From Asterionella formosa (taxonomy: Eukaryota), in contig NKIB01012722.1 in assembly GCA_002256025.1 (NCBI GenBank), positions 1 to 64,000 on the forward strand: a stretch of DNA of 64,000 bases, in the 5' to 3' direction. The notes beneath the pieces were generated by a model. The model saw only the letters and a list, made by a program, of their open reading frames with translations. It was not told where the DNA came from and ran no database searches. Shown here one piece after another: positions 1-51,338 of the stretch (its first letter is position 1; each line of letters opens with the position of its first letter). Position numbers and translations under genes: made by a program.

Positions 1-919
1 CATTTCGACGTGCATGTGTTGATGGGTACTTCCGAAGGCTGTGTGTGCCAATCAAACCATTGTTCATTCGTTTGAACTCACTACTTTCCCATACATCATC
101 ACGCAGAATTGTATAGGCCTTTCTTTTAGCATTTGATGGATTGTTGGTTTGTAGCGAAAACACCCATGGATTTTCAGGTGATGCGCCTTGTTCCATACAT
201 TCTGTCTCAAGATGAACAGCCAAGGCAAGGAGAACGCAATAGTCTTGCGACATGGATGCAATGAGTACCTGGTTTGGTGCCTCCCTCTCTTCTTTAGCGT
301 TTTTTGTCCAACACAGCTTGGCCATCAGAGTGAAAGGAAATCGAAGATTCGCAGTTAGGTTTATTTTTGTTAATTGCACACAATCGTCAATTCGGCCGAC
401 CATGTGGAATTGAAAGACACATAGTGCAGGCAACTGATACCGATGAATACTGTCCTTGAATGAATGAAGGATATGCATTGTACTGGAGAACTCTTGGGAT
501 TCTAGGGGTCGCCTTGCTTGTGATGGTTTCCCTTGTCTGCGCACTTCCTTCTTTTTTACTGCCTTGATGAGATTATTGACAGGCACAGACCTTGTTGGAT
601 TGCCACTGTGCATAATAGCATTCCAAGTGGAGAGTCGATTTGGCATAAAATACGACAATGCCTTTTTGTAGTATTCCAGGGAAGAAGACCGGCCATGTGT
701 TGGATTGTCATCATTGTTTGGATCAGGACGGCCATAGACTTTCATAGCCATCCATTTGTAGACATCCTCAGGTGTAACTTCCCCAAGTTCCTCTGGACTA
801 AACTCGTAGCTTTTAGAATATTCTATGCCATCTCTGTATGACATCATAGCAATTAGGACACTCTTGTAAACAGGGGATTGTGTAGGTTCATTTACTCTTC
901 TTGTTGGCATTGTCGCCAT
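1..919 (-). mobile_element. Tyrosine-recombinase ORF of a Crypton-like DNA transposon (306 codons, no stop, runs off the window edge)
   Basis: Manual translation from the ATG at 919: MATMPTRRVNEPTQSPVYKSVL...GRSSSLEYYKKALSYFMPNRLSTWN...GNPTRSVPVNNLIKAVKKKEVRRQG...FQFHMVGRIDD...LCWTKN...GLIGTHSLRKYPSTHARRN. It contains the box-I Arg (GRIDD) and the H-x-x-R box (HSLRK) of tyrosine recombinases. The ORF track omits it, probably because its stop lies outside the window. Confidence 0.85.
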
Positions 920-975
920 GTTGATATTTAGTTTAATTTTTTACTTCAATCCCATTTCATACCATGTTGTATCGT

Positions 976-1215
976 GGTAGAATTTCTTGGAAAATACCAT
1001 GGCATACTGCAGGGTTCCATTGGTCCGTTGGTAGAATATTCTACCAAAATGTGAAAAAAAATTCTACCCCCAGTACTACTGGGTAGAATTTTTGCCTTTG
1101 TCTATACCATATTTTCACCACGGTCAAGCAAGGGAGGGGTACCGGACAGTATTGACCTGTCCAGAGTAGAACACTACCGGAGCCCTGCAGAAAAATACTA
1201 CTTTGGTAGAATTTC
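976..1215. repeat. Cluster of GGTAGAAT/ATTCTACC motifs and palindromes upstream of the recombinase ORF
   Basis: GGTAGAATTT at 976. Perfect 20-bp palindrome TTGGTAGAATATTCTACCAA at 1028-1047. AAAAATTCTACCC-N11-GGGTAGAATTTTT at about 1057-1093. TTGGTAGAATTT at about 1203. Confidence 0.85.
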
Positions 1216-1706
1216 GTCAATAATGTATGAGTTATGAGTGACTATCAGCACCCGGATCTACGCTTTTTTATATAACGCTAGTATAGTACCGGTATCTGAT
1301 ACCTCCTATGTACCTGGTACCAGGGTACCTGGTACCCCTGGTACCAGCAGTCTACTCCGTACCAGTTAACCATGCTAGGAATCAAATGATTGAGCTGGTT
1401 CCGCTTGGCTGACCAGAAGTCATCATCAGTGAGTCCTGTGGATTTGCTTGCGCTTTTTCTTGCCAATAAATTGCAGTTCACAAGGAAACGGAACCTATGG
1501 GTTACATTTCCATCAGCTTGAAATCGACAGTAGAAACAATCCGCCTATACAAGTCTATTTATTGGGAAAAGGAAGGGTGAAAAAACAGCAAGAAGAAGTC
1601 AAGCCTCACATACTCCTCAATCCGACTCACGCCTTGAAGGTTCCTTTAGATTGGATCTTGATGATATTGGTTTCTTGACGAAACTTTGATAGAAAGGAAT
1701 CAAACA

Positions 1707-3049
1707 ATGCTGGATAGAGTAGTGTCGATTTTGGCAGCGGTGACATACGCAATTGCATTTACGTGTGCGCCAGGAATACGGCAATCCCCGAAATGGACGA
1801 CAACGTCCCTCAATATTGCTGATGTACTGGCGCCGAAGTATGACAAGCAATTGGCTGGCAGATGGGAAGAAGTGCACGGTAACTACATTCTCCCGCCGCC
1901 GATCGATCAAGGAGCCCCGCGAGCACTGTTACATTTTCTCGGAGGGGCTATTGTGGGAGCTGTTCCTCATCTTAGCTACCGATACATGCTAGAACGCCTT
2001 GCTGAGAAAGGTTTCCTAGTGGTGGCAACACCTTACAATCTCTCCTTTGATCATTTAGAAACCTGTGATGCTATAATTCAGAGATTTGAAAGAATTGCAC
2101 CCATGCTGGCGCAGCAGTATGGAGCAGTGCCTGTTGTTGGAGTTGGGCACTCGTGTGGAGCGCTATTACACCTATTGATTACGAGTCTATTCCCAGACAC
2201 ACCACGAGCAGCTAATGCCTTGATGAGTTTCAACAACAAACCTGTGAAAGAAGCTGTTCCTTTTTTCGAGGAGGTGAGTAACGTTTCAGAAAGCAAAGCT
2301 TGCAAACGATCCATTGAAATAATCGTGCTCAATCGATATGCAAGTTCTTCGCTCCTGCCTTTACAGCCCTTGCGGCAAAGAATGGAACTTTTCCCAGCAG
2401 TAATGAAGCTCTTAGGCTGAGCTTACGACTGGCCCGAGCAGCGTCAGAAGGGAATTTACCTTCAGATGATCTATTGACTGAAATTTCTAGCCTGCTGACA
2501 CCTAAACCTTTGGCTTCCTTCGCTCCTACCAACGTAATGATCCCATCTGCTTTGAGGGAGGCGCTTAAGACTATTATTTTTCCGGCTAGTGAAGCCTTGA
2601 CTGGTACTGGCATACTTCCTTTGATGAATGATTTTGTTGATACCCTTGATCAAATACCACTACTCATTGAAGAAGTTGCAAACGGGGCTCGTGATTTTGT
2701 TCCTCCTCCAGAGTTAGTGCGAGGAGCTGCAAGAAGGGCATACAGAGCAAGGAGAACACTAATTTTGGGGTATGATAATGATCCACTAGACGAATCGGAA
2801 GAGATTGAAGGACTACTGAAAGAAGCAGAGAGTGTTACTCGCATGAAACGGCCAATGATTCAGATTGATGTACAACGCAAAATCTTGGAGGGAAACCATG
2901 CCACTCCCTTACTGGCTCCACCATTGGATCTTGCATTACAAGCCGAAAATATTCTTGGTGCTGACTCAGCGAAGGAACGGCTAAATTATTCACAGGCTGA
3001 TGCTACGGTAGCTGAATTGATATGTTGGCTTGAAGAAGGCGGTGTTTAA
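1707..3049 (+). CDS. DUF1350-like alpha/beta-hydrolase, probably plastid-targeted; one intron at 2274-2344
   Basis: Motifs HFLGGA, GFLVVATPY, nucleophile elbow GVGHSCG and C-terminal GNHATP. Removing the GT..AG intron joins ORFs 1686 and 2474 in frame. The N-terminus is hydrophobic and ends in AIAF. Confidence 0.75.
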
Positions 3050-3117: not shown

Positions 3118-5412
3118 TTATGGCTTGGAAAAAAATGGAGGAGGCGGCATCCCAATAGAACCAAATAGGGCTGCTGCACTATTTGTGGTAGCTGGATCTA
3201 CCGCCGCTTGCTGAGGGCAAGGCGCTAAGAGTTGAGTCTGGCCCTTTGGAGACAGAGGAACATCCATCATTCCATCGTCAGAATCCAGGGCATAGGGACT
3301 CTCCCCGACTCCGTTTGGTGATCCAAAGACACTGGCTGCGCTCACTGCAGCTGGATGAGTTCTACTAGAGCTTGCGATTTCCGAACTCGGCTTTTCGTGT
3401 TTTGATGTTTTAAGGATTTGCTCCGGGAGAGGATCGTGGATTCCATTGCGATTTGCGTTTGAAGTCAGCGTCGTATCTTGAGTGATTGTCTTAACCAAAG
3501 GTTCTTCTTCGGCATAGCTTATGGGCGTGACAAACACGCTAGCTTTTTCTACGTTCAGTTCGGGGGCTTCAAACTCATGAGCAATGGACGTGGAATGATC
3601 TGTTGGTGCTTCCGTAGTGACCGAAGGAGCATAGGCTGACGATGAGCTTCCCAACAGGTTGTCTGCGCGCTTTTCAGTTGCAATGCATGCAGATTCCTTG
3701 ATCAGCTGAGAATGTGGCGCTAATTTTTGCTCATTACTTGAAATGCCGCTTTCCGGGGTAGGGCCACACACAAAAACTGCCGCATTGTCGGAGACTGGCG
3801 TCGCCGGGGTCGAAAATAGTTGATGGGCATCTCCCGAGACTGGGGAGGGCTGAGAAAGAAAAAATTGCTGTGCGTTTCCAGAGGCCGGAGCGGGCTGAGA
3901 TGAAAAACGTTGCTGAGCATTTCCAGATGCAGGCGATTGTTGAGGAAGAACAGTATCAACATAAGGTGAAGCATTTCCCAGTTGTTGCTGAGGATGTCCC
4001 AACAAAACTCCTCGAGATCCGTTGCTGTTGTAAGGCGATGCGATGTTAAGTTGATTCTGCTCTTGCTGCTTGGATGCACTTTGTGGATACGTGGGTTGCT
4101 GGTGATTTGGTGGGGACATTGATGACAATGGTGGAGGCGGGAAGAATGTCGTTGAAGGTGTAGCGGGGGCAGAGTTTGTTTGAGGATATCCGGGTTGAGT
4201 ATATGGCACTGTCTGAGGCTGCTGGTGTCCTGATTGCTGTTGAGTCCCTACTTGTTGCTGAAAGTTTATACCAGTTTGAGCAGCAGCACCAACTGGATTA
4301 AACATGGTATAGATACCAGGCGCAGGAGGAGCAACTGCAAAGTTATATCCACCTGACATTGGTACTGCAGCTATGGGTATCCCCGGATTGTTATTGTAGA
4401 CGGGATATCTAGCCTTCATTGCTCCACCACCAAAGGCAGCATAGGGGTTGGCGGCACCAGCATATCCGCTAGACGAAGGAGCAGATACTGAAGTGCTATT
4501 TCCCGATGACGGTGGAGGTGGGACCGCAGCAGCTAAGTTTCCCGAGCTGGAGTGTCCATATTTAATCTGTAGATTGACATCCGAGGACGAAGAATGGAAG
4601 CCATCCGACTTATATTTGTTGCTGAAAATAGCTGCCGACGAGTGGCCGGTTCGCGAGTAGGAATGCTGTCCCGATGTTGGTGCTGGTGGTGGCACAGCAG
4701 GGCTACTTGTCGCACTTTGAACAGGGTTGATGTCGGATACATTTTGAACAGCGTATTTGGCTGGGACATTTGGACTGGGAGTTGTCATCATGCCGTAGTA
4801 GTTTGCATCAGGAGTTGGTCCAGGAGTGGATGGAGGAGGCGCAGACAAGCCACCAATGGGTGGAGGTGGCAAGGCCGAATTCCGAATCTGCAAACCGCCC
4901 ATATCAATCCCTGGAGGCAAGCCTATGCCTCCATTATCCAATGCATCCCGTGTCTCTTGCTGAAGCTGAAGCGGTAAAAGGTACTGACGGACACTGTTGA
5001 CAGAGGCCAAGTCATATGGAGTTTGACCTTCTGAGTTCTTGGCAACAACCGACGCGCCAAACTGTGTTACTAGGAGACGCACCGTATCCATGCTGACTTT
5101 GTTCTCTGACAAGCAAGCGTAATGTAGCGGCGTATTTCCAGCATAGTCCACGATATTTGTATTGGCACCAGGAATGTTCATAATCTGACGAATAATGTTG
5201 TTCATACTGTACTGGCAAGCTAAATGCAAGGGATATGCTCCCTTAGTAGGCTGTACAACCTCCATGAGAGGATCAATTTCGGCAAGGCATGATTGTGCGG
5301 CAACCTCGTCATTTCGTTGGATGCAGTAAGCAAAGCGGCTCAGCGCGTCGGTCGGCGGGGGAGCTACTGTTTGAGCCAAGTTTTCAAGTTGTTGCGTGGC
5401 CCACGAAAACAT
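3118..5412 (-). CDS. Ankyrin-repeat protein with a long Pro/Gln/Ser-rich disordered tail
   Basis: 764-aa ORF with ankyrin motifs GAYPLHLAC, GNTPLHYAC and GQTPYDLA. Confidence 0.85.
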   Translation of the reverse strand: MFSWATQQLENLAQTVAPPPTDALSRFAYCIQRNDEVAAQSCLAEIDPLMEVVQPTKGAYPLHLACQYSMNNIIRQIMNIPGANTNIVDYAGNTPLHYACLSENKVSMDTVRLLVTQFGASVVAKNSEGQTPYDLASVNSVRQYLLPLQLQQETRDALDNGGIGLPPGIDMGGLQIRNSALPPPPIGGLSAPPPSTPGPTPDANYYGMMTTPSPNVPAKYAVQNVSDINPVQSATSSPAVPPPAPTSGQHSYSRTGHSSAAIFSNKYKSDGFHSSSSDVNLQIKYGHSSSGNLAAAVPPPPSSGNSTSVSAPSSSGYAGAANPYAAFGGGAMKARYPVYNNNPGIPIAAVPMSGGYNFAVAPPAPGIYTMFNPVGAAAQTGINFQQQVGTQQQSGHQQPQTVPYTQPGYPQTNSAPATPSTTFFPPPPLSSMSPPNHQQPTYPQSASKQQEQNQLNIASPYNSNGSRGVLLGHPQQQLGNASPYVDTVLPQQSPASGNAQQRFSSQPAPASGNAQQFFLSQPSPVSGDAHQLFSTPATPVSDNAAVFVCGPTPESGISSNEQKLAPHSQLIKESACIATEKRADNLLGSSSSAYAPSVTTEAPTDHSTSIAHEFEAPELNVEKASVFVTPISYAEEEPLVKTITQDTTLTSNANRNGIHDPLPEQILKTSKHEKPSSEIASSSRTHPAAVSAASVFGSPNGVGESPYALDSDDGMMDVPLSPKGQTQLLAPCPQQAAVDPATTNSAAALFGSIGMPPPPFFSKP

Positions 5413-6802
5413 TGTTGGAATCTAGTTTCTGCTGTTTGTTCTGTTCAGAAGAGAGTAGGTCTAGGCAGCTAGGCTTACCGTCGATATTAATTGGATTATT
5501 AGACCAGACTTTCTAGTTTCTGACACTGTTGGAATGGAATGATGCGGTTCAGCACCTTTGTGGCTGCCGTAAAAGGTTATATCCGTCAAAAAGCAATACG
5601 ACCTGGAGACTAACGGTATACCTATATCATAGCCAACATACCGGTACTGGTCTCTTGACTGCGAGTATACGGTACATGTGTTCGAGCCTGGGTGGCGCGA
5701 GTAGGTTGACAGTACGAGTGGCGCCCCCGGCGCTGAGAGAAGGTCACCCTACGAGTGCCTTCCCAGCAGGGTACCTGGTACCGGTACCGGTAGACATGTA
5801 TACGAGAAGCCAAGTAGCCGCCGAGAAGGGTATTGTTGAGGCAATTCACAAACTAGCTATCATGCCGTCATTCGCTTACATATTGCCTACGAATAAAGCA
5901 TAAATGTTAATTTTTGGTTACTATTTATTGCCCATCATATAAAGTACATTTCGTTTATTTCCTATATCCACATCCAAAATTGCCAAAGGTCCGATATTGC
6001 CCATCATGTAAATATATTTTTTATATTTCATATGTTAGCATTTTGGCAAGACATCAGACACCAAAATTGCCCCTCGGTTTTCCAGCCCTGGGATTGCCGA
6101 AATTGGCAAGGGGTTTACTTAAGGACACCATTTTACATACTCTAAAGATTTTGATAATTTATATCTAGAATTCACCTCATTTTTGCTTTTCTCCTGAAAA
6201 GTGGACTCCGGCAAGTCACCTTTCACCATGCCAATCGTTGTCCACCATGACTGTTTTGAAGCGAAATCAGTTCAGTGATGATGCCACCAGTAGCGATTCG
6301 TTGTCTAACGGATGCGGTTGGTTGTTGGATTGCTTGTCATCTCGAGGGATTCATGTAGTCACATCATCCATATTTCGTCAGACAAACGATGACAGCGATA
6401 CATCTGATGTTGGTGGCAAGTTTTTGCTCTGGTCATGATGCATGTGATGATGCTTAACGGATATTCTACCAGTAGTCATCTAGCCAACATATGTACATGG
6501 TATTGAAAACAACCATGCATGGTTTAAACTAAACTTTAGCGCTTACTTTGAACTCGGCCGTTATAATATTATCTCTGTAGACTCAGTAATATTTTTACGA
6601 GACCAGAATGTTAAATTATATCGTTCACATACTGATTGATTTTACTTACCGTATGCCCAATTTCGTCCTCATAATTAGAATTCTTACTCTATCCTGCCTG
6701 CCATTTCTCAATTCGGACTTGCAACAGGAACTTTTGACTTTCTTACATCTGCAAATAAAAACTATCATGCATATAGGATCAAGGGTATTGTACACTAAGT
6801 GG

Positions 6803-7038
6803 GGGAATGGCTTAGTGGTTAGCACACCCACTGTGGTGGAGGGTTTGATTCCTGCATTCTCCACCTGTCTTTTTCATGTAGTCCCTAGGGTTCTGGGGGG
6901 TGCGGCTGACGAAACGACAGGTCCCGTTGTACTGTATGGACGAATAAAACTGGTACTAATTGTGTCCATCTATTTGGTGGCTGGGCCCGAGTGCAATTAT
7001 TGGTTAGCTTTAATGCAATATAAAATTTCATTTACATT
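6803..7038 (+). mobile_element. tRNA-derived SINE, apparently full-length copy
   Basis: A-box TGGCTTAGTGG and B-box-like GGTTTGATTCC in the head. The tail is made of ATTT/CATTT units. It is flanked by the exact 17-bp direct repeat TATTGTACACTAAGTGG (6786-6802 and 7039-7055). Confidence 0.8.
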
Positions 7039-7202: not shown

Positions 7203-7426
7203 AAATGTCGATTAAATTATATAGTACATTAAAGCTATCCAATGATTGCACTTCTTGGGCCCACCAAACAGATGGACACAATTAGTACCGGTTTTATTCG
7301 TCCTTACGGTATAACGGGAACTGTCTTTTTTGTCAGCCGCATCCCCCGGAACCCTAGGGACTACACGAAAAAGACAGGTGGAGAATTCAGGAATCGAACC
7401 CGCCACCACAGTGGGTGTGCTAACCA
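7203..7426 (-). mobile_element. Second, 5'-truncated copy of the same SINE in the opposite orientation
   Basis: Reverse complement of 6815-7030 with a canonical B-box GGTTCGATTCC. Flanked by CCATATAATTA (7192-7202) and CCACATAATTA (7427-7437). Confidence 0.75.
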
Positions 7427-19411: not shown

Positions 19412-19645
19412 CCAAAAAGCTATGAGTTTAGTTTTAGAGGGCCTTGATGAAAATAATGATAACAAGCAAACAATACTTGGCCAGTGTTCTTCCCTTGTTG
19501 AATAGGAGTGCAAAAAGGCAATGTAGTTTTCTTGTGCCAAATTGACTTTCCACTTGGAATAATATTACCCACAGCGGAAATCCAACAAGCTATGTGTCTG
19601 TCAACAAACTGGTCATCAACAAGGCCATAAAAGAAAAAGCTTACC
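19412..19645 (+). pseudogene. Decayed fragment of the Crypton tyrosine-recombinase gene
   Basis: Collinear with the reverse complement of about 545-815: AAAAGCTA.GAGTTTAGT, TCTTCCCT, AAAAAGGCA.TGT, GCCAAAT.GACT.TCCACTTGGAAT, AATCCAACAAG and CTGTCAA. It has indels and stops. Confidence 0.8.
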
Positions 19646-49645: not shown

Positions 49646-51338
49646 ACATGACCAACATGGTGCCCATATGTATTAGAACATGTATATGTACACAGGATTG
49701 ATCATGAATATTATGCGATGTCATGCATAGTTACAGCTACTAGCGTGTAGCGCACAGGACACATTTCATTATGTAGCCAAGACCTCCTTATGCATATGAT
49801 GACGTCATACCTATTGGTACATATCTACCTCTAGACTGGATGTAGCAATGCTAGGATAAATTCTAATTCTAAGTATAGAGTACAATCAGAGCTCATATGT
49901 AATAAAACCTTTGGATTATGGCCTTTGTGAGTCCCCATGATTCCCACGACTACTAACCTTGAGCTGCCTAATATAGATGAACTAATCTTGAAGCTCATAA
50001 ATTAACATTTCACAATATCAAAAGAACACCTACCTTAACCCTGACAATAATAGGGCAGTACTTGACCTATGGTACATAGGATTACCTATAGATCAGACTA
50101 TGCAAATAGCTATAATTAACCAAAACCACATAGCAACATTAACTGATCCACGAGCTCTACTAAAGTAGATACCAAATAACTGGATGGTTCTAATATATAA
50201 AGATAGTGCAACAATACACACTAATCCAGAGTCATGATTCAGTATAGACATCTAGGATTAATAGTTAGCCTAGTGAGAGCGAGAAATTACCTCTTGAGAC
50301 CACTCACTACAACGTCTGATCTCGACGTAGAGTCTCATACATTGATTCCCTAATGGTTAAAGGGTCATCTAGACTAAACTAAGACTTATACTCTGCCAAG
50401 CGGTATCCCATAAGTAATCTTTACTTAGTAATATCAAAGCTAGGATTAAACCTAGTAAAGATTAGTGAATGAACAATATTATCCTTACTAGGTCTAAACC
50501 AAGGGTACTACTAGCAAGTCACAATGGTCAATGCAGTCTCAAGGATTCCCAAATGCCCCCTTTCCAAGATTAGATCTACCCAGCGAGCAAATATTTTTTA
50601 ATAACATTTAGCTCACTCTTTTTATATTCCCTGAACACGCTTGGACTTGATCCAATAGGGATGTAGAAAAAATTCATTAGGGGAGCAACCCTGCCCACTT
50701 ATTTTATATTTCACATTAACAAGAGGAATTGAAAAGCCCACAACAAGCACATGTAAGCCACTGCTACATCCTTACAAGAAAATAATACTAGTGGCAGCTA
50801 ATACATAGGTGTGAATAAATGGATGGTAGATGGGTACCAGGTACTAGGATGACGCATGATCAACTTGACCATTGTCATCGTCCTTTAGTACTGGGTACCT
50901 GGTACCGGTATTCGTTTAACCACTCGTCAAAAACCTCGTTGGGCGCGCCAAAATCCAGAGGTCGTTGGTATCTATATTTATTATTATAGCTTGATAAATG
51001 TTGAGGTATCGATTCAGATGTGCCATGAAAACCACATACAGTATTTTACAGTGAAGTGAGAATGTTTCGGTGTACGTAGAGTACCAGTTACCACGGTACC
51101 AGTTCCCGCATCAGCATGCCTACAACATGCTGGCGTTTCCTGAAGCAACTATAGGCGCGAATTGTATGTAAATCACAATATTATTGCCGGGCAGTCAGTC
51201 TAGTGTACCAACCACCGGCAGATATAAACCGGTTTACATGTCTTCTTGACAACAAGCATTGCTTCAACTTCATTATTGATATTTCACTTTGCTAGTTGTA
51301 TCCGTTGTTTGCTGCTATTGTTTCGTCTAACCACCATC

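What the first reader, a model, noticed from the sequence alone, without database searches (positions are those of the whole stretch)
976..1215. loxP/FRT-like palindromic sites next to the eukaryotic tyrosine recombinase
Seen: six GGTAGAAT half-sites within about 300 bp upstream of the start codon. They include a perfect 20-bp palindrome (1028-1047) and 13-bp inverted arms AAAAATTCTACCC / GGGTAGAATTTTT around an 11-bp spacer. Known: Cre and Flp act on 13-8-13 sites, and Cryptons are described as lacking terminal inverted repeats. Inference: these could be the binding or crossover sites of this recombinase, giving a compact enzyme-plus-site system, or an autoregulatory operator. The spacer is longer than the usual 6-8 bp.
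Basis: partly seen in the sequence, partly recalled or inferred. Interest (0 to 1): 0.75.

Follow-up and report, generated by a model that had tools for sequence, protein, structure and literature searches.

The report
Recombinase docking array at transposon end
These repeats are most likely docking sites for a jumping gene's own Cre-like enzyme, while the place where it cuts and rejoins DNA lies a few bases further out at the element's tip; five related families in the same alga use this layout with different letters, which makes the poorly understood way such elements move testable.

Summary
The motif cluster is real (6 GGTAGAAT in 237 bp; 20-bp palindrome; 13-11-13 dyad). It lies in the left end of a young ~2.7-kb CryptonF-like transposon (Cre-fold recombinase plus a GCR1_C-like domain). 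The palindromes are not loxP-like crossover sites. Copies, empty sites and end-to-end junctions put the crossover at the tip (window 1216-1234): arm–7 bp–arm, target TAC-NNNN-ACA-GTA. Only ACA is shared with the target. The host's four bases stay on the left and the element's TGGC stays on the right. The GGTAGAAT array looks like accessory (arm-type) binding sites: it recurs at the right end, a dead-ORF lineage keeps exactly 975-1226, and five sister families keep the layout while all copies change together to a family-specific motif, each family with its own 3-bp core. The one-sided inheritance (72 of 74 right ends keep the family's 4-mer or a one-base variant) suggests a single strand exchange resolved by replication or repair (inferred). 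Binding is untested. The scan earlier reported a 7-base Crypton junction in this genome, probably this family (e1-7577446, e1-7564517). Verdict: new variant of a known kind.

The parts
2..919 (-). N-terminal 306 aa of the tyrosine recombinase ORF, cut off by the contig start. The intact version is 705 aa (P0001): recombinase, coiled coil, GCR1_C-like C-terminal domain.
975..1226 (-). Left-end cis region (element 1-252). A non-autonomous lineage keeps it at 90-98% identity, against about 70% inside; the break falls 1 nt past the last motif.
976..983 (+). Innermost accessory motif copy (GGTAGAAT)
1028..1047 (.). Perfect 20-bp palindrome made of two tail-to-tail accessory motifs. Intact in 24 of 29 family-A left ends; the spacing differs between sister families.
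1057..1093 (.). 13-11-13 head-to-head dyad of accessory motifs. It contains the 20-bp module GTAGTAYTGGGGGTAGAATT (1060-1079, minus strand) that recurs at the element's right end.
1140..1156 (+). Internal core-like site TAC-CGGACA-GTATTGAC: a perfect copy of the right-end arm with a 6-bp spacer. Families B-E have TAC-N7-GTA at the same position, with a spacer that does not end in their own core.
1192..1214 (-). Terminal imperfect dyad AAATTCTACCAAAGTAGTATTTT holding the outermost motif (1205-1212). Its degenerate five-family form has 199 exact matches in the genome (control 0).
1216..1223 (-). Left core arm TTATTGAC, the inverted counterpart of the right-end arm GTCAATAC
1224..1226 (-). ACA: the 3-bp core shared by both element ends and the target; the first bases of the element
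1227..1234 (-). Host side of the crossover site: host 4-mer TCAT (1227-1230) and host arm TAAC (1231-1234; the consensus is NTAC, so one mismatch here)

Best explanation
The cluster is the subterminal accessory-site array of a CryptonF-like transposon, not its crossover site. SHOWN by sequence: the element is bounded by host TAC-NNNN-[ACA-TTATTGAC...element...GTCAATAC-TGGC-ACA]-GTA. It inserts into TAC-NNNN-ACA-GTA, and joining its ends gives arm-TGGCACA-arm. INFERRED: the recombinase domain binds the core arms (and the minimal TAC/GTA mimics in the target) around a 7-bp overlap, of which only the 3 bp at one edge need to match. The C-terminal GCR1_C-like domain, tethered by a coiled coil, binds the GGTAGAAT copies inside both ends and holds them in a synaptic complex, as lambda or CTnDOT integrase does with arm-type sites. 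Strand exchange occurs at the ACA edge, and the junction is usually resolved without exchanging the mismatched four bases (replication or strand-biased repair), so the host 4-mer stays left and TGGC stays right. Because the array also lies in the promoter region, the same binding may repress the gene.
For: Ends: sharp boundary with TAC at -7..-5 in 19 of 26 independent left flanks (background 0.046) and GTA after ACA in 26 of 31 right flanks (background 0.032). Two sets of empty sites, and a family-B element inserted in reverse orientation at the same 7-mer, as its CCG core predicts (L157). Contigs from other runs break at the same two points. Array: exact motif counts in the first 300 nt are A 6, B 7, C 6, D 4, E 4 for the family's own motif, with only 2 off-family hits; the five families (63-71% aa identity to the window's protein) share one host, so a host factor would not explain family-specific motifs. 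A dead-ORF lineage keeps element 1-252 and the last ~106 nt. The 20-bp module occurs at both ends. Protein: Cre/Flp/Ndc10 fold, conserved R176, K206, H293, R296, W319, Y329, GCR1_C hit; GCR1_C is described as the DNA-binding domain of CryptonF (PMC3212892 section 6). Asymmetry: right ends keep the family 4-mer or a one-base variant in 29 of 31 (A), 22 of 22 (B) and 21 of 21 (D); host-flanked left ends carry it in 0 of 26, 1 of 16 and 0 of 16.
Against: No binding or recombination data; which domain reads the motif is inferred. The GCR1_C hit on P0001 (21.2 bits) is under Pfam's cut-off of 23, although the sister protein passes (23.8). The break at 252 could simply be where a chimera recombined at a shared motif, so the needed region may be shorter; L106/L114 lack element 33-188 and their mobility is unknown. 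Exceptions to the asymmetry exist: 2 of 31 A right ends have unrelated 4-mers (CTGC, AGGG), L181 has B's GTTC on a host-flanked left end, and 2 of 35 distinct A right ends have the 7-mer inverted. Cleavage positions are inferred from symmetry. Free circles are not shown: L144 is a non-autonomous right end joined to an autonomous left end, that is, a tandem insertion. All five families come from one genome.
Confidence: 0.7

Rival explanations
1. The array is only an autoregulatory operator (or enhancer) bound by the element's own protein. Recombination needs just the terminal core arms.
For: The array lies 57-293 bp upstream of the ATG. GCR1_C domains occur in yeast transcription factors derived from CryptonF. 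Family-specific co-variation fits an operator equally well. The internal core-like site with a non-matching spacer looks like a bind-only site.
Against: The same module sits at the right end, downstream of the gene, in families A and B. A lineage with a dead ORF keeps the whole array at 90-98% but has replaced the DNA between the last motif and the ATG.
Confidence: 0.17
2. Same sites, but a complete two-step exchange as in CTnDOT gives a 4-bp heteroduplex, and strongly strand-biased repair or selection produces the observed asymmetry. This rivals only the resolution step.
For: IntDOT uses a 7-bp overlap with 2 bp of identity plus a 5-bp variable coupling sequence and completes both exchanges (PMC2817482 passages). 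The few replaced 4-mers (CTGC, AGGG, L181) show that swapping can occur.
Against: Unbiased resolution would erase the family 4-mer within a few rounds. Instead 72 of 74 right ends keep it, and families B and D share the same GTTC.
Confidence: 0.25
3. The palindrome or the 13-11-13 dyad is itself a loxP/FRT-like crossover site, used for inversion or dimer resolution.
For: Perfect inverted repeats beside a Cre-fold enzyme. 3 of 9 internal breaks fall in these two features.
Against: Spacers of 0 and 11 bp lie outside the 6-8 bp cited for these enzymes (PMC3212892). Half-site orientation is opposite in the two features, and palindrome spacing differs among families. The internal breaks are scattered and look like one-off deletions or truncations, about 1.6 being expected by length. 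All host junctions map to the terminus.
Confidence: 0.03
4. The repeats are binding sites of a host transcription factor, or neutral products of slippage and gene conversion.
For: The intergenic DNA of this genome is rich in short GTAC/TACC repeats.
Against: Position-conserved copies change together to a different motif in each family within one host. Only 2 other GGTAGAAT occur in the remaining 63.7 kb of the window.
Confidence: 0.07

Closest known systems
CryptonF transposons (Kojima & Jurka 2011, PMC3212892: passages, section 6, supplement 1 whole and part 4 of supplement 4 read; CryptonF-1_cRei, PMC9977147 and its preprint: passages read)
   Same: Single ORF with tyrosine recombinase plus GCR1_C; no long terminal inverted repeats; short direct repeat matching the target; length in the 1.8-6.0 kb range listed; non-autonomous derivatives.
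   Different: The shared repeat is only 3 bp (papers list mostly 5-6 bp, or state 4-6 bp) and sits inside a 7-bp spacer between TAC/GTA arms. The passages read describe no subterminal motif arrays, no internal core-like site and no fixed element-borne 4-mer. The only diatom Crypton in that paper is a CryptonS.
CryptonS (oomycetes, Phaeodactylum; PMC3212892)
   Same: Recombinase-only DNA transposon of similar size; the host is probably also a stramenopile (not tested here).
   Different: CryptonS is defined as lacking GCR1_C and mostly ends in TATGG (CTGTAAG for the diatom one); neither holds here.
CTnDOT/IntDOT and lambda-type heterobivalent integrases (PMC2817482, passages read)
   Same: 7-bp overlap with identity needed only at one edge; imperfect core arms; separate arm-type sites read by a separate domain (inferred here).
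   Different: Here 3+4 rather than 2+5; the extra domain is C-terminal GCR1_C-like; the variable bases do not vary at the element's right end; eukaryotic; no host bending factor known.
Integron IntI replicative resolution (PMC3458562, abstract read) and strand-biased circularizing SE elements (PMC9345347, passages read)
   Same: Tyrosine recombinase reactions with one strand exchange completed by replication, which would give the one-sided inheritance seen here.
   Different: No folded single-stranded site is evident here. In SEs the 6 bp taken from attL move to attR, whereas here the right-end 4-mer is kept; SEs encode two recombinases.
Cre-loxP / Flp-FRT
   Same: Fold (Foldseek best hits Cre, E 1e-5; VIA Z 15.3 Flp, rmsd 3.7, 226 aligned); arm-spacer-arm crossover site at the joined ends.
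   Different: They need full spacer identity and 13-bp arms and use no accessory sites (spacer identity; the rest recalled).

Membership tests
Crypton (general) | [quoted passage not shown] | tested here: met
   One 705-aa ORF (2118 nt) in elements of 2.65-2.73 kb; Cre-like fold; conserved R-K-H-R-W-Y (assignment of roles from general knowledge of the family).
Crypton (general) | Dispersed copies with discrete ends and empty sites | tested here: met
   33 exact left-end and 40 exact right-end matches; empty sites.
Crypton (general) | No long terminal inverted or direct repeats; short direct repeat reflecting target microhomology | tested here: met
   ACA at both ends and once in the empty site; only short imperfect inverted arms.
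Crypton (general) | Direct repeat of 4-6 bp | tested here: not met
   The shared repeat is 3 bp in families A, B and D, where both ends were examined.
Crypton (general) | Moves through an extrachromosomal circle (proposed model) | tested here: inconclusive
   End-to-end junctions in L004, L005, L029, L091, L144, L146 and in families B and D, but L144 is a tandem of two different elements; only contigs were available.
CryptonF | C-terminal GCR1_C domain | tested here: met
   P0001 608-674, E 3.6e-4, 21.2 bits (just under the cut-off of 23); sister L056 23.8 and P0003 25.7 pass.
CryptonF | Recombinase clusters with CryptonF in a phylogeny | not tested
Ndc10, a CryptonF-derived protein, scores Z 13.6 but ties with Xer, Cre and lambda Int.
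CryptonS | No GCR1_C domain; TATGG-type termini | tested here: not met
   GCR1_C-like domain present; termini are ACA; definitions.
loxP/FRT-type site (for the flagged palindromes) | Inverted 11-13 bp arms around a 6-8 bp spacer | tested here: not met
   Spacers are 0 and 11 bp.
loxP/FRT-type site (for the flagged palindromes) | Crossovers map to the site | tested here: not met
   37 boundaries at the terminus, 9 scattered internal breaks.
Heterobivalent (lambda/IntDOT-like) system | Separate domain binds arm-type sites distinct from core sites | not testable with these tools
   Two motif classes and a second DNA-binding domain are present, but binding needs an experiment.

The most novel reading that the evidence does not exclude
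This is a eukaryotic heterobivalent tyrosine-recombinase system: one protein reads arm-type arrays with its GCR1_C domain, needs only TAC-N4-xyz-GTA as a target, and transposes by a single strand exchange finished by replication. At least five co-resident families form a natural orthogonal set, each with its own 3-bp core (ACA, CCG, CTG, GTA, ATA) and mostly its own arm motif, and each carries an internal decoy core site that regulates itself and is used as a target by sister families. It would explain how Cryptons can excise cleanly yet gain copies.
Probability: 0.35. Interest if true: 0.78.

Novelty: new variant of a known kind. Interest (0 to 1): 0.55.

Why it matters
Crypton transposition has a proposed circle model but, in the papers found here, no biochemical mechanism; the 2011 survey states that it could find no conserved nucleotide sequences among Cryptons, and the Chlamydomonas study saw clean excision together with rising copy number without explaining it. 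This element supplies an intact enzyme sequence, exact donor and target sites, a candidate function for the GCR1_C domain in its ancestral setting, and five families whose sites differ in defined letters, so domain-swap and site-swap tests can be designed directly. A recombinase that integrates a circle at a 9-bp-information target in a eukaryote could also interest genome engineers, although such a short target would occur very often.

Tried and rejected
Pfam on the window's 306-aa piece found no recombinase family; the assignment rests on the full-length relative and the fold. No empty allele of this window's own site was found: the flank search returned only the window itself and short matches to a simple repeat. 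Viral contigs gave no relative. The metagenome scan gave only 3 loci, all of this same family, so conservation of the layout in other species could not be tested. The C-terminal domain folded alone gave a weak model (pLDDT 63) and no informative fold match (best Z 6.2). Laying four runs (contigs only) showed the breakpoints but nothing about junction 4-mers or free circles, and the RNA run does not prove transcription. Right ends of families C and E were not determined. Only part of the matches were examined: 58 of 199 five-family left ends fetched, 30 of 58 B and 30 of 46 D right ends, 30 of 40 and 30 of 33 exact A ends plus loci. Counts are over clusters of flanks (75% identity), junction-type ends dropped. 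Rejected: CryptonS (my first guess), unrelated MITE, Tn916-like free coupling sequences, crossover at the palindromes. Literature: six searches found no description of subterminal arrays or a 4+3 spacer in Cryptons; Goodwin 2003 and Repbase entries are not in the library and were not seen, and the bioRxiv supplements (Chlamydomonas preprint, Starship circle preprint) are closed and may bear on this. The host's identity (diatom) comes from earlier scan notes and was not tested here. Earlier-finding look-ups by sequence, words and nearness returned nothing.

Full report
OBSERVATION. The six GGTAGAAT copies, the 20-bp palindrome (1028-1047) and the 13-bp arms (1057-1069, 1081-1093) with an 11-bp gap are as described. 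Eight copies occur in the window against 1.52 expected, and six lie within 237 bp.

CONTEXT. The window is the start of contig C12722 of a 68-Mb, 15,436-contig eukaryotic assembly; earlier scan notes call the host a diatom, which I did not test. Bases 1-1226 are the left half of a multi-copy element: identical over 1226 nt to three other contigs and 99.6-99.9% to four more of the nine compared (these contigs break at one point, so assembly collapse may flatter the identity). Exact searches find 33 left ends and 40 right ends. Four loci hold both ends, 2288-2734 bp apart.

PROTEIN. The ORF is cut at residue 306 by the contig start. P0001, 99% identical, is 705 aa, and a metagenome contig encodes it intact (L144). 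In a 104-sequence alignment R176, K206, W319 and Y329 are invariant and H293 and R296 are at least 90% conserved, the pattern expected of a tyrosine recombinase (general knowledge). The model (pLDDT 85.6) has a long helix at 486-547 and a folded C-terminal domain. Foldseek's best hits are Cre (E 1.1e-5); VIA ranks Flp Z 15.3, then Ndc10, Xer, Cre and lambda Int at about 13.5. Residues 608-674 match GCR1_C just under the cut-off, and sister proteins pass it. Recombinase plus GCR1_C is the CryptonF architecture (PMC3212892 section 6); CryptonS lacks GCR1_C.

WHERE THE CROSSOVER IS. Read in gene direction, left ends are host-NTAC-NNNN-ACA-TTATTGAC and right ends GTCAATAC-TGGC-ACA-GTA-host. TAC stands at -7..-5 in 19 of 26 independent left flanks, with 22 different 4-mers and never TGGC or TAGC. 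Of 31 independent right ends, 25 read TGGCACA, 4 TAGCACA, 1 CTGCACA and 1 AGGGACA, and GTA follows in 26. Empty sites confirm this. L052 reads GTAC-CTTG-ACA-GTATTGAC where filled copies read GTAC-CTTG-ACA-TTATT on the left and TAGC-ACA-GTATTGAC on the right. In a second repeat, of 25 loci fetched 2 hold family A, 1 holds family B, 12 are empty and read ACA-GT, 9 are empty variants and 1 diverges. Contigs from runs X1, X8 and X15 have loose ends just before ACA, and X1 and X15 just after it, beginning GTAC. The target is therefore TAC-N4-ACA-GTA: two minimal arms around 7 bp, of which 3 match the element. Among alignments to the left end, 37 begin at base 1 and 9 break internally at scattered places, 3 of them in the dyad or palindrome.

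WHAT THE ARRAY IS. First, it recurs at the right end: the module GTAGTAYTGGGGGTAGAATT lies at element 148-167 and again just inside the right arm, and family B has the equivalent. So the '11-bp spacer' contains a degenerate motif copy. Second, a non-autonomous lineage whose ORF has decayed to about 70% identity keeps element 1-252 at 90-98% (13 of 17 loci tested reach 252; the others stop at 241, 184 or 84 or have an internal deletion) and the last ~106 nt; the break lies one base past the last motif. Third, four sister families (B-E) keep the same layout: terminal dyad, internal core-like site near base 75, head-to-head dyad, palindrome, last copy. All copies change together: TTCTACC in A (6 copies) and E (4), TTAAACC in B (7), TTCAACY in C (6), ATCAACY in D (4), with two off-family hits in all (one representative per family). 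Each family has its own core: ACA 17 of 17, CCG 16 of 17, CTG 19 of 20, GTA 18 of 19, ATA 10 of 10. Family B entered the reverse strand of the same 7-mer that A uses, as its CCG core predicts. A family-specific motif within one host points to an element-encoded reader, and the GCR1_C-like domain is the obvious candidate (inference). As a lead only: A and a decayed E copy have YY where B, C and D have YC or a stop then C in that domain.

INTERNAL CORE-LIKE SITE. Window 1140-1156 holds a perfect copy of the right arm with a 6-bp spacer; B-E have TAC-N7-GTA at that position with spacers that do not end in their own core. It looks like a site that can be bound but not recombined by its own family. 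C's copy ends in ACA and is where family A has inserted.

MECHANISM. Shown: site structure, target rule, one-sided inheritance. Right ends keep the family 4-mer or a one-base variant in 29 of 31 (A), 22 of 22 (B) and 21 of 21 (D); host-flanked left ends carry it in 0 of 26, 1 of 16 and 0 of 16. Inferred: cleavage at the edges of the 7 bp, with the first exchange at the matching edge, as for IntDOT's 2+5 overlap (PMC2817482). IntDOT goes on to a second, mismatch-tolerant exchange, which would scramble the 4-mer; here it is almost never scrambled. The simplest reading is one exchange resolved by replication or repair, as shown for integrons (PMC3458562 abstract) and related to SE elements (PMC9345347). 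That would yield an intact donor, an empty site and a circle from one event, matching the clean excisions with rising copy number reported for CryptonF-1_cRei (PMC9977147). Biased repair of a heteroduplex gives the same genomic pattern, and the exceptions show that swapping is possible. End-to-end junctions occur in A, B and D, but the right end is itself a perfect target, and L144 joins two different elements, so junctions do not prove circles.

COMPARISON AND NOVELTY. It works like a Crypton and has the CryptonF domain layout; the 3-bp repeat falls short of the published 4-6 bp, and the phylogeny was not tested. Papers seen: PMC3212892 (abstract, passages, section 6, supplement 1, part 4 of supplement 4), PMC9977147 and its preprint, PMC2817482, PMC13465315, PMC9345347 and the Starship circle preprint (passages), PMC3458562 (abstract). 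None of these passages describes such arrays or a 4+3 spacer in Cryptons; six searches found nothing closer. Earlier scan notes already report arm-spacer-arm junctions of Crypton-type elements in this genome, one with a 7-base crossover on an 1800-letter piece that is probably contig C1160 (L004) of this family. What this analysis adds is the role of the array, the five-family co-variation, the internal site and the asymmetry.

VERDICT. Observation confirmed; interpretation partly supported; new variant of a known kind; interest 0.55.

Noticed in passing
L093/L104 (C4514, C12564) and L102 right ends: The 7-bp spacer is inverted (TGTGCCA) exactly where the host arm makes a perfect 8-bp inverted repeat with the element arm; micro-inversion by hairpin or by the recombinase.
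   Followed up: partly
L003, L007, L026, L027, L111, L123 and others: Family A sits in the internal core-like site of family C's left end, and the composite has different outer flanks, so it appears to have moved on C's ends. Family B likewise sits directly before family E left ends (L044, L231, L234).
   Followed up: partly
L147-L171, L016, L107, L121: One site in a dispersed repeat was hit several times by family A and once by family B in reverse orientation: an insertion hot spot.
   Followed up: partly
left flanks of families A, B, E: The last base of the host 4-mer is biased (T in 18 of 26 for A, A in 13 of 17 for B, T in 8 of 10 for E) although the element's own base there is C in A and B; possibly a result of GTAC-rich repeats. 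Unexplained.
   Followed up: no
L123: The left end (1-84) is joined to an inverted 3' segment exactly at the edge of the internal core-like spacer; a single case.
   Followed up: partly
L145 right end: Reads TGGC-ACA-TTATTGAC and then family C sequence, a hybrid of the junction and the target arm; may be an assembly chimera.
   Followed up: no
window 1686-3049: DUF1350 gene, probably with an intron, starting about 460 bp beyond the element's left end and transcribed away from it.
   Followed up: no
window 3118-5412 (-): 764-aa ankyrin-repeat, proline-rich protein with a 45-bp periodic repeat at 3816-3926.
   Followed up: no
window 19417-19632 and 50147-50623: Decayed fragments similar to this Crypton group (68-78% to L028, L124, L086).
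   Followed up: no
window 6799-7006 and 7236-7330: Two copies of another dispersed repeat, also found in the flank of L086, in opposite orientations.
   Followed up: no
P0001 residue 318: Cys where at least 90% of relatives, and the assembly copy L061, have Arg next to the conserved Trp; check which allele is active before expression.
   Followed up: no
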